Shown here one piece after another: positions 57,614-58,099 of a stretch of DNA of 64,000 nucleotides. This DNA comes from an uncultured virus (IMG/VR IMGVR_UViG_3300008964_000003). Lineage: Duplodnaviria > Heunggongvirae > Uroviricota > Caudoviricetes. The translations under genes were made by a program, and so were the position numbers. Numbering within the stretch: the first letter of the stretch is position 1; the number at the start of each line of letters is the position of its first letter. Under the pieces are notes generated by a model. The model did not search any database and had not been told where the DNA came from. It saw only the letters and a program-made list of their open reading frames with translations. The DNA lies in IMG/VR virus record IMGVR_UViG_3300008964_000003; one strand, 5' to 3'.

Positions 57614-57649
57614 TTTAAAAGTCACAGTATTAAAACTATAATATAGGGG

Positions 57650-57678
57650 TTTACTTAATCCATCCTTTATGTTAATAT
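57650..57678 (+). promoter_or_regulatory. Putative promoter of the tmRNA gene
   Basis: TTTACT-N17-TAATAT. Confidence 0.5.
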
Positions 57679-57684
57679 ATAACC

Positions 57685-58070
57685 TGTAAACGTTGAAGCA
57701 ACGTGGACACATTCTGGACCTGGGGGCGGTACCCAGCGACTCCACCATAAGGATACACAATGAAACAATATTCAAAAGAATATTTAGAGTTTGAACTGAA
57801 ACACACTAAAGAGTTGGTAGAACTTCATCATAACACAAGAGATGAAGAATTGAGACTTCAAATTTTAGAAGTTAGAAAAACTCTTGAGCGTATCTTTTTG
57901 ATGGGGTCGAAATTAGGATCGACAGGTGTGAAAGTGAAAGTGGAGTTTACCGGATGACTGCGTTATTGGTCAATTAAACTAAATGCAAATGAAAATTTCG
58001 CACCTACAGGTTACGCCCTAGCGGCATAATGCTGGTGGGTATGAGCACCACCTAGAAACAGAACGGACTC
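57685..58070 (+). ncRNA. ssrA: Circularly permuted two-piece tmRNA (alphaproteobacterial type)
   Basis: Acceptor piece first: T-arm CTGGG-GGCGGTA-CCCAG, CGACTCC-A-CCA ending at 57747. Coding piece from GGGGTCG at 57903 gives a 7-bp stem with G3.U70. Tag ANENFAPTGYALAA* at 57985-58029. Outer ends approximate. Confidence 0.92.
57760..57957 (+). CDS. ORF in tmRNA intervening segment, reading into the tmRNA 5' end
   Basis: AAGGA RBS directly after the CCA; 65 codons. Confidence 0.5.
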   Translation: MKQYSKEYLEFELKHTKELVELHHNTRDEELRLQILEVRKTLERIFLMGSKLGSTGVKVKVEFTG

Positions 58071-58099
58071 GCAACAACTTTAATTTTATAGGACTAAAA

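What the first reader, a model, noticed from the sequence alone, without database searches (positions are those of the whole stretch)
57748..57957. Protein-coding ORF inside the tmRNA intervening segment: maturation would create a non-stop mRNA
Seen: the 155-nt spacer between the CCA and the tmRNA 5' end starts with an AAGGA RBS and ATG (57760), stays open across the whole spacer, and stops only at 57957, 55 nt inside the tmRNA coding piece. Known: this spacer is excised (RNase P at the 5' G, 3' trimming at CCA) and is normally short and non-coding. Inference: cleavage at 57903 leaves a 47-codon stop-less mRNA, itself a tmRNA substrate, while ribosomes reading the precursor would unfold the acceptor stem. 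This could be an autoregulatory or tmRNA-activity-sensing circuit, analogous in logic to arfA.
Basis: partly seen in the sequence, partly recalled or inferred. Interest (0 to 1): 0.85.

Follow-up and report, generated by a model that had tools for sequence, protein, structure and literature searches.

The report
Stop-less gene inside phage tmRNA spacer
A marine phage keeps a real small-protein gene inside the spacer that is cut out when its ribosome-rescue RNA (tmRNA) matures, and in this gene family the stop codon lies beyond the cut, so the processed message would itself need rescue by tmRNA; whether that serves as a sensor is not shown.

Summary
Observation confirmed. The 155-nt intervening segment (IVS, 57748-57902) of a permuted alpha-type tmRNA gene of a T4-like phage holds an ORF from ATG 57760 that crosses the predicted RNase P site. 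It is a real gene: dN/dS 0.12-0.15 in the closer pairs, homologues at 42-72% identity, predicted helical-hairpin homodimer. The read-through is old: it is kept in alpha-type and, in another frame, beta-type tmRNA genes; 0 of 54 protein records end within 2 residues of the conserved core. The 65-aa length is not conserved (tails 3-30 aa). But a sensor is not shown: the closing stem and UGAU leader are fixed in register (205 of 214 IVS), the last needed codons are the stem arm, 12 of 31 unrelated IVS ORF families also read through (chance-like), and 2 of 9 DNA contexts have an ordinary stop. Best reading: cargo gene made from the nascent precursor and shut off by maturation (0.55); arfA-like sensor 0.3. 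The scan noted IVS genes before on other DNA (14 notes), not this family.

The parts
57614..57642 (+). sigma-70-like promoter candidate upstream of the tmRNA gene
   Evidence: 10 of 12; 7 sites found against 3.1 expected, so weak. A second candidate at 57650-57678 was seen by eye only.
57686..57747 (+). acceptor piece of the two-piece tmRNA (T-arm 57720-57736, acceptor 3' strand 57737-57743, ACCA 57744-57747); 5' limit approximate
57748..57902 (+). intervening segment (IVS), 155 nt, an exchangeable stem-closed cassette
   Evidence: fold of 57710-57930 z = -4.3
57749..57756 (+). 5' arm of the closing stem; contains the SD-like AAGGA (57749-57753)
57760..57957 (+). ORF, 65 aa as read on the precursor; conserved core = codons 1-46 (57760-57897), two helices 6-26 and 29-49, predicted homodimer
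57890..57898 (+). 3' arm of the closing stem, doubling as codons 44-47 (R-I-F-L)
57899..57902 (+). conserved TGAT leader facing ACCA, directly 5' of the predicted RNase P cut (57902/57903); its TGA is out of frame with this ORF
   Evidence: T 98%, G 93%, A 93%, T 94% of 214 viral IVS; the cut itself is inferred
57903..58073 (+). coding piece of the tmRNA (acceptor 5' strand 57903-57909 with G3:U70; extra T at 57913; 3' limit approximate)
57985..58029 (+). tag reading frame ANENFAPTGYALAA*

Best explanation
The IVS is a stem-closed, exchangeable cassette that these phages use to carry small genes; this one encodes a 46-47-residue helical hairpin that probably acts as a homodimer (four-helix bundle) binding a protein partner, target unknown. 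It is made in a short window from the nascent or still uncut tmRNA precursor: the ribosome loads before the 3' arm is transcribed, runs through the arm and the acceptor 5' strand and stops at whatever stop the tmRNA body offers, so the tail is arbitrary. Stem closure buries the RBS, and the RNase P cut turns what is left into a non-stop message that trans-translation tags and clears. Maturation of the tmRNA therefore switches the gene off. The stop cannot easily move in front of the cut because the last needed codons are the stem arm and arm and leader are fixed in register. Shown: gene, selection, old read-through, fixed register. Predicted by models: fold, dimer, buried RBS. Inferred: translation, cut site, tagging, timing.
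For: dN/dS window vs L248 0.13 (p 0.0014), vs L253 0.12 (p 1e-4), L625 vs L631 0.14, L627 vs L631 0.15. 11 invariant residues in 27 aligned homologues, all within residues 8-42. AlphaFold2 hairpin, pLDDT 91.5. Homodimer score 0.73 against best control 0.02; the mark was reached by 20 of 30 proteins solved as pairs of one chain and 1 of 23 solved as single chains; runs agree in 100% of contacts, partner pLDDT at least 88; residues 44-45, coded by the stem arm, are in the interface. Closing stem has exactly 4 unpaired 3' nt in 205 of 214 viral IVS; none of 18 multi-member IVS ORF families mixes stop and read-through; among 31 strong families 11 stop at the leader TGA, 8 earlier, 12 read through (p 0.18 against one third). 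Same cassette sits in tmRNA bodies with different tags and tails of 3-30 aa. L251/P0013 (50 contigs) and L628 carry the gene with an ordinary stop and no downstream cut site. SD unpaired probability about 0 for GGA in precursor and excised IVS, partly open in the nascent RNA.
Against: No translation data. The family changed register between alpha (cut after 47 codons + 2 nt) and beta (47 + 0) copies and skipped the register that gives a stop with the full core; residue 43, one base from a stop in 49 of 54 records (E, Q, K), changes but never to a stop; this fits selection for non-stop equally well. Some pairs give weak dN/dS (window vs L625 0.39, p 0.054; L625 vs L627 0.45, p 0.1). Beta-type copies lack AAGGA, so the buried-RBS step is not general. 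The protein's target is not known.
Confidence: 0.55

Rival explanations
1. Selected non-stop sensor, arfA logic: the main message is the RNase P-cut intermediate (acceptor piece + IVS). While trans-translation is ample the protein is tagged and destroyed; when it is saturated or blocked, the untagged 47-aa dimer is released by a back-up factor and acts, and stalled ribosomes also delay 3' trimming of the acceptor piece.
For: Read-through in 7 of 9 distinct DNA contexts (window, L247, L248, L253, L625, L627, L631) and in an RNA-run variant with 13 substitutions and no gap (X5); two frames used, stop frame never; 0 of 54 records end within 2 residues of position 46; 16 of 35 tails match translated tmRNA/tRNA 5' ends at empirical p <= 0.05, P0026 best matching a tRNA-Cys; conserved core ends flush with the cut and the tail is unconserved, as described for arfA (PMC8012679 passages); no selection for a near stop (window +55, L631 30-aa tail).
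Against: Register lock explains persistence; read-through is chance-like across families; only one frame switch is certain, the tree is unresolved (3 of 26 inner branches starred); stop-bearing copies exist and one is common; no ArfA homology, core not basic (net charge -4 to +5); 16 tails stay unassigned without DNA.
Confidence: 0.3
2. The tagged, short-lived product or the act of translation is what matters: ribosomes crossing the arm and acceptor strand delay folding and RNase P cleavage, so the ORF times or damps tmRNA maturation; or the non-stop message is a decoy that loads the host's trans-translation.
For: Every IVS ORF class ends on or beyond the 3' arm, so a ribosome must melt the stem; fold.
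Against: Residue-level conservation and a defined dimer interface are not needed for a pure translation effect; many IVS have no ORF.
Confidence: 0.1
3. The ORF is an untranslated relic or hitch-hiker, like S23p of Coxiella, reported not to be made in vivo.
For: RBS buried or absent; PMC4990558 abstract.
Against: dN/dS 0.12-0.15 between copies that both sit in IVSs, no frame breaks over about 50% protein divergence.
Confidence: 0.05

Closest known systems
Permuted two-piece tmRNA genes (Rfam RF01849 alpha, RF01850 beta, RF04321), incl. phage Melnitz (PMC9004378)
   Same: Gene order acceptor piece - IVS - coding piece, Ala acceptor stem, tag frame; common in aquatic phages (passages).
   Different: IVS is 155 nt and protein-coding. 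PMC9004378 has 0 hits for 'intervening'; PMC11915505 has 0 hits for 'ORF' and names only a tRNA-Ala gene and a repeat inside IVSs (passages and part 1 of 2 of Results; supplements not read).
arfA (E. coli) and brfA (B. subtilis): genes expressed as non-stop mRNA and held down by trans-translation
   Same: Stop codon lies beyond a processing site; conserved part ends before it; tail unconserved (PMC8012679 and PMC3985003 passages).
   Different: Cut would be by RNase P at a tmRNA 5' end, not RNase III or a terminator; gene is nested in the tmRNA precursor; no homology, helical hairpin, not basic; rescue activity and regulation untested.
23S rRNA intervening sequences with an S23p ORF (Coxiella, PMC4990558)
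   Same: ORF inside a segment excised from a stable-RNA precursor.
   Different: Those are cut out by RNase III, the ORF is complete, and in Coxiella reported not to be made and decaying (abstract only); here the ORF is under purifying selection and lacks its stop.
tRNA punctuation of animal mitochondrial mRNAs with stops completed by poly(A) (recalled, no call)
   Same: Message end made by RNase P at the next tRNA-like RNA.
   Different: The cut leaves AU (alpha) or a whole GAU codon (beta); added A residues would not give UAA.

Membership tests
permuted two-piece tmRNA | T-arm, acceptor 3' strand and CCA upstream of the acceptor 5' strand, G3:U70 pair | tested here: met
permuted two-piece tmRNA | tag reading frame ending in Ala-Ala | tested here: met
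   ANENFAPTGYALAA*
permuted two-piece tmRNA | IVS removed in vivo, two pieces function | tested here: inconclusive
   Only assembled contigs of RNA runs were available; one covers 57912-58090 at 100%, but contigs show no ends
ArfA/BrfA-type non-stop-regulated genes | processing site upstream of the stop codon | tested here: inconclusive
   Position fits in 7 of 9 DNA contexts; cleavage on a translated message is inferred
ArfA/BrfA-type non-stop-regulated genes | unconserved, dispensable tail beyond the site | tested here: met
   3-30 residues of unrelated sequence after position 46
ArfA/BrfA-type non-stop-regulated genes | sequence family ArfA (PF03889) or basic C-terminal segment for the mRNA channel | tested here: not met
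   No ArfA hit at E 0.1 for the ORF or 27 members; core net charge -4 to +5
ArfA/BrfA-type non-stop-regulated genes | untagged product builds up when trans-translation fails and rescues ribosomes with a release factor | not testable with these tools
   needs genetics and biochemistry
rRNA IVS with S23p | located in 23S rRNA, S23p homology, complete ORF | tested here: not met
group I introns of tmRNA | insertion in the T-loop, intron core | tested here: not met
   T-loop intact, no intron family among the 2 Rfam hits of the window; site definition from PMC11915505

The most novel reading that the evidence does not exclude
An old family of phage genes is kept stop-less on purpose at RNase P sites of tmRNA (and some tRNA) precursors: maturation of the tmRNA makes its own substrate, so the small dimeric protein appears only when trans-translation is exhausted and reports or corrects the rescue capacity of the infected cell. 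It would be the first non-stop sensor made by RNase P and nested in the tmRNA gene itself, with up to a third of phage IVS gene families using the same logic.
Probability: 0.3. Interest if true: 0.9.

Novelty: new variant of a known kind. Interest (0 to 1): 0.66.

Why it matters
The IVS of two-piece tmRNA is treated as discarded spacer. Here it carries a selected protein gene whose expression must compete with RNase P processing and whose processed message is a tmRNA substrate. Even as a frozen arrangement this is a new way to gate a gene; as a sensor it would tie phage-encoded tmRNA, whose purpose is open, to a testable feedback loop. It also means gene callers give these proteins false tails read from tmRNA or tRNA.

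Tried and rejected
Sequencing slip in the T run: rejected. 65-aa protein as the functional unit: rejected, tails vary. Stop completed by polyadenylation: rejected by frame. Fusion to long proteins: P0007, P0009, P0015 in the cluster listing are unrelated sequences. Family or fold assignment: no useful hit in Pfam, PHROGs, NCBIfam, PDB sequences, ESM Atlas (best 0.77, 0.78), Foldseek PDB/BFVD (0 at E <= 0.001), VIA-align (best Z 6.2, generic helices). A conserved K14-H15 recalls the KH motif of ArfA/BrfA, but it lies in the predicted dimer interface of a non-basic helix: not pursued. No homologue in 50,697 cultured-phage records or in 401 sampled bacterial genomes. No SmpB, RF-1 domain or ArfA in 5 phage records, only 1 of them complete. 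L637 was a false pattern hit. Tail test had only 11 tRNAs in its library, so tRNA-like tails other than P0026 stay unassigned; my by-eye readings of P0023, P0033, P0037, P0039 as tRNA 5' ends rest on recalled tRNA positions and are not counted. Tree unresolved. The L625 row was mis-parsed and is not used. RNA run X1 had no contig over the IVS, which proves nothing. Rfam found no known RNA family inside 19 structured non-coding IVSs. Literature searches without a paper on IVS ORFs: 9 papers; 0; the library lacks most subscription journals, and Keiler 2000, Sharkady 2004 and Mao 2009 were seen only as references.

Full report
1. Observation. The window is a T4-like aquatic phage (replicative helicase 67% to phage C48C1, about 60% to cyanomyoviruses; nearest held record G001 is a 114-kb virus contig). 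ARAGORN and Rfam place a permuted alpha-type tmRNA gene at about 57650-58075. The segment between CCA (57747) and the 5' G (57903) is 155 nt and holds AAGGA, ATG 57760 and an open frame to 57957. Such a frame arises in 2.1% of 20,000 shuffles, 0.12% with an SD-like word. Six IMG/VR contigs and two metagenome contigs carry the same ORF in the same tmRNA, and the 65-aa protein is recorded on 95 contigs, so the T run before the cut is not an error.

2. The slot. With one pattern, 112 of 120 viral and 112 of 120 bacterial loci could be parsed: IVS median 56.5 nt against 29 nt; 34 against 2 of at least 90 nt. Pooling these with three scans that asked for AAGGA after the CCA (biased towards ORFs, each cut at 120 rows), 152 of 163 unique long viral IVS hold an ORF of at least 20 codons filling 60% or more, in 46 clusters. 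IVS ends form a stem in a fixed register: 205 of 214 leave exactly four 3' bases, nearly always TGAT, opposite ACCA. The window's cassette occurs in tmRNA bodies with different tags (ANENFAPTGYALAA, ANTNAAPKALALAA), so cassettes are exchanged. Earlier notes of this scan describe the slot on other genomes; none matched this family by sequence.

3. The gene is real. Over codons 2-42, dN/dS is 0.13 and 0.12 to the two alpha-type relatives and 0.14-0.15 for two of three beta-type pairs; distant pairs give 0.11-0.46, some not significant (28 pairs). A profile search of 1.84 billion proteins gave 15 hits, 13 of them short homologues; two further searches added more. In 27 aligned sequences (42-88% to the window) 11 positions from Y8 to L42 are invariant with no gap in the core. 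AlphaFold2 gives two helices, pLDDT 91.5. A homodimer is supported by the model, not shown: 0.73 against best control 0.02; 20 of 30 solved pairs and 1 of 23 single chains reach that mark; 100% contact agreement, pLDDT at least 88; interface includes residues 44-45. No family or fold match was found (see Tried and rejected).

4. The read-through is old. Alpha-type copies L248 and L253 read through and stop at +13; the window reaches +55 only through one extra T, seen in 4 of 249 junctions. L625, L627 and L631 (46-54% identity class) lie in the IVS of beta-type permuted tmRNA genes (RF01850) and read through in the other open frame, the cut falling after a whole codon, with tails of 4, 9 and 30 residues. 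An RNA-run contig with 13 substitutions keeps the frame (X5). Of 54 stored protein records with the family motif (redundant), none ends within 2 residues of position 46; tails are 3-30 residues, although the searches covered lengths from 26 aa. 16 of 35 tails match translated tmRNA/tRNA 5' ends better than 95% of 75 control C-termini; P0026 matches tRNA-Cys; 2 more are shown by DNA, 1 (P0013) is shown not to be at a junction and 16 stay open. Against: in L251 the cassette lost its downstream cut site and ends at a stop inside the next promoter (P0013, 50 contigs), and L628 is a free-standing copy with a stop after 51 codons and no tRNA or tmRNA. So 7 of 9 DNA contexts read through.

5. Design or lock? 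For design: both open frames are used and the stop frame is not; residue 43 varies among E, Q, K, H, T, D but is never a stop; the core ends flush with the cut and the tail is free, as in arfA (PMC8012679, passages). For lock: codons 44-46 are the stem arm, I45 is in the predicted dimer interface, and the leader bases that could become a stop are 93-98% fixed, so a stop before the cut needs paired changes on both arms or costs needed residues. None of 18 multi-member families mixes stop and read-through, and among 31 strong families 11 stop at the leader TGA, 8 earlier and 12 read through, not different from a random frame for those reaching the arm (p 0.18). Only one frame switch is certain and the tree is unresolved. 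The data show that the non-stop state is at least tolerated for a selected protein over long times; they do not show it is favoured.

6. Mechanism. Two-piece tmRNA is thought to be matured by RNase P and a 3' nuclease (PMC3985003, passages: 'probably'). Folding puts the GGA of the RBS in the closing stem in precursor, cut intermediate and excised IVS (unpaired probability about 0), partly open before the 3' arm is made. Most likely, then, ribosomes load on the nascent precursor, cross the acceptor 5' strand and stop in the tmRNA body; closure and cleavage end expression, and ribosomes caught on the cut RNA stall and are tagged. This coupling follows from the layout whether or not it was selected; its use as a sensor is the rival (0.3). 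Beta-type copies have no AAGGA. The phage records searched have no SmpB, RF-1 domain or ArfA (0 of 5, one complete), so rescue would rely on host factors. RNA-run contigs cover the IVS of relatives at depth 3-11 in 3 of 4 runs laid, which cannot show ends or levels. The protein's target is unknown; the neutral dimeric bundle suits a protein-binding module better than an mRNA-channel factor (inference).

7. Known and new. It is a member of permuted tmRNA genes; it works like arfA in layout but is not an ArfA; it resembles S23p-bearing rRNA IVSs in position only. No paper on protein-coding tmRNA IVSs turned up; PMC11915505 (passages, part 1 of 2 of Results; supplements not read) and PMC9004378 (passages) do not mention one. 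PMC3978253 (passages) added nothing. Verdict: real, new variant; interest 0.66.

Noticed in passing
L247:1346-1680; L250; L251:190-480; runs X2, X3: Upstream of an intact tmRNA gene, two IVS cassettes in tandem are joined by a 19-nt acceptor-stem-only unit with G3:U70 and ACCA (alanine microhelix-like); cassette 1 is a tRNA-like RNA (RF00005, 44 bits), cassette 2 is the window's ORF. Seen in 2 independent contigs and in loose ends of 2 RNA runs. Suggests cassette arrays punctuated by minimal RNase P sites.
   Followed up: partly
L285:626-1093: A 482-nt IVS encodes an HNH homing-endonuclease-like protein (phrog_655, E 7e-15), a possible driver of cassette exchange.
   Followed up: partly
L028:747-917 and L269, L286, L325, L341, L352, L478: A second old read-through family (7 sequences, down to 57% identity, varied tmRNA types) with a very basic C-terminal half; its last four residues are unconserved and a stop is one base away, yet none has it. 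A better candidate for an ArfA-like rescue factor; no Pfam, PHROG or cultured-phage hit.
   Followed up: partly
L004:746-934: IVS ORF family matches DUF6356 (PF19883, E 4e-11).
   Followed up: no
L145, L182, L141, L173 and others: The largest IVS family (56 sequences) has two overlapping ORFs: a short one after the RBS and a membrane peptide ending at the leader TGA.
   Followed up: no
L006, L009, L049, L066, L084, L094, L099 and others: Many 60-110-nt viral IVS are structured non-coding RNAs with no Rfam match of their own.
   Followed up: partly
L068, L115: Two IVS share a similar peptide in a frame with no clear ATG start, reading through the cut (seen by eye).
   Followed up: no
P0055 / P0026: A homologue is fused behind a 65-residue domain and its tail reads as tRNA-Cys; no DNA available.
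   Followed up: partly
window:58100-58435: Directly downstream lies a 111-aa signal-peptide protein ending in Phe, like an outer-membrane beta-barrel; similar genes flank the tmRNA in L247 and L248; no family hit.
   Followed up: no
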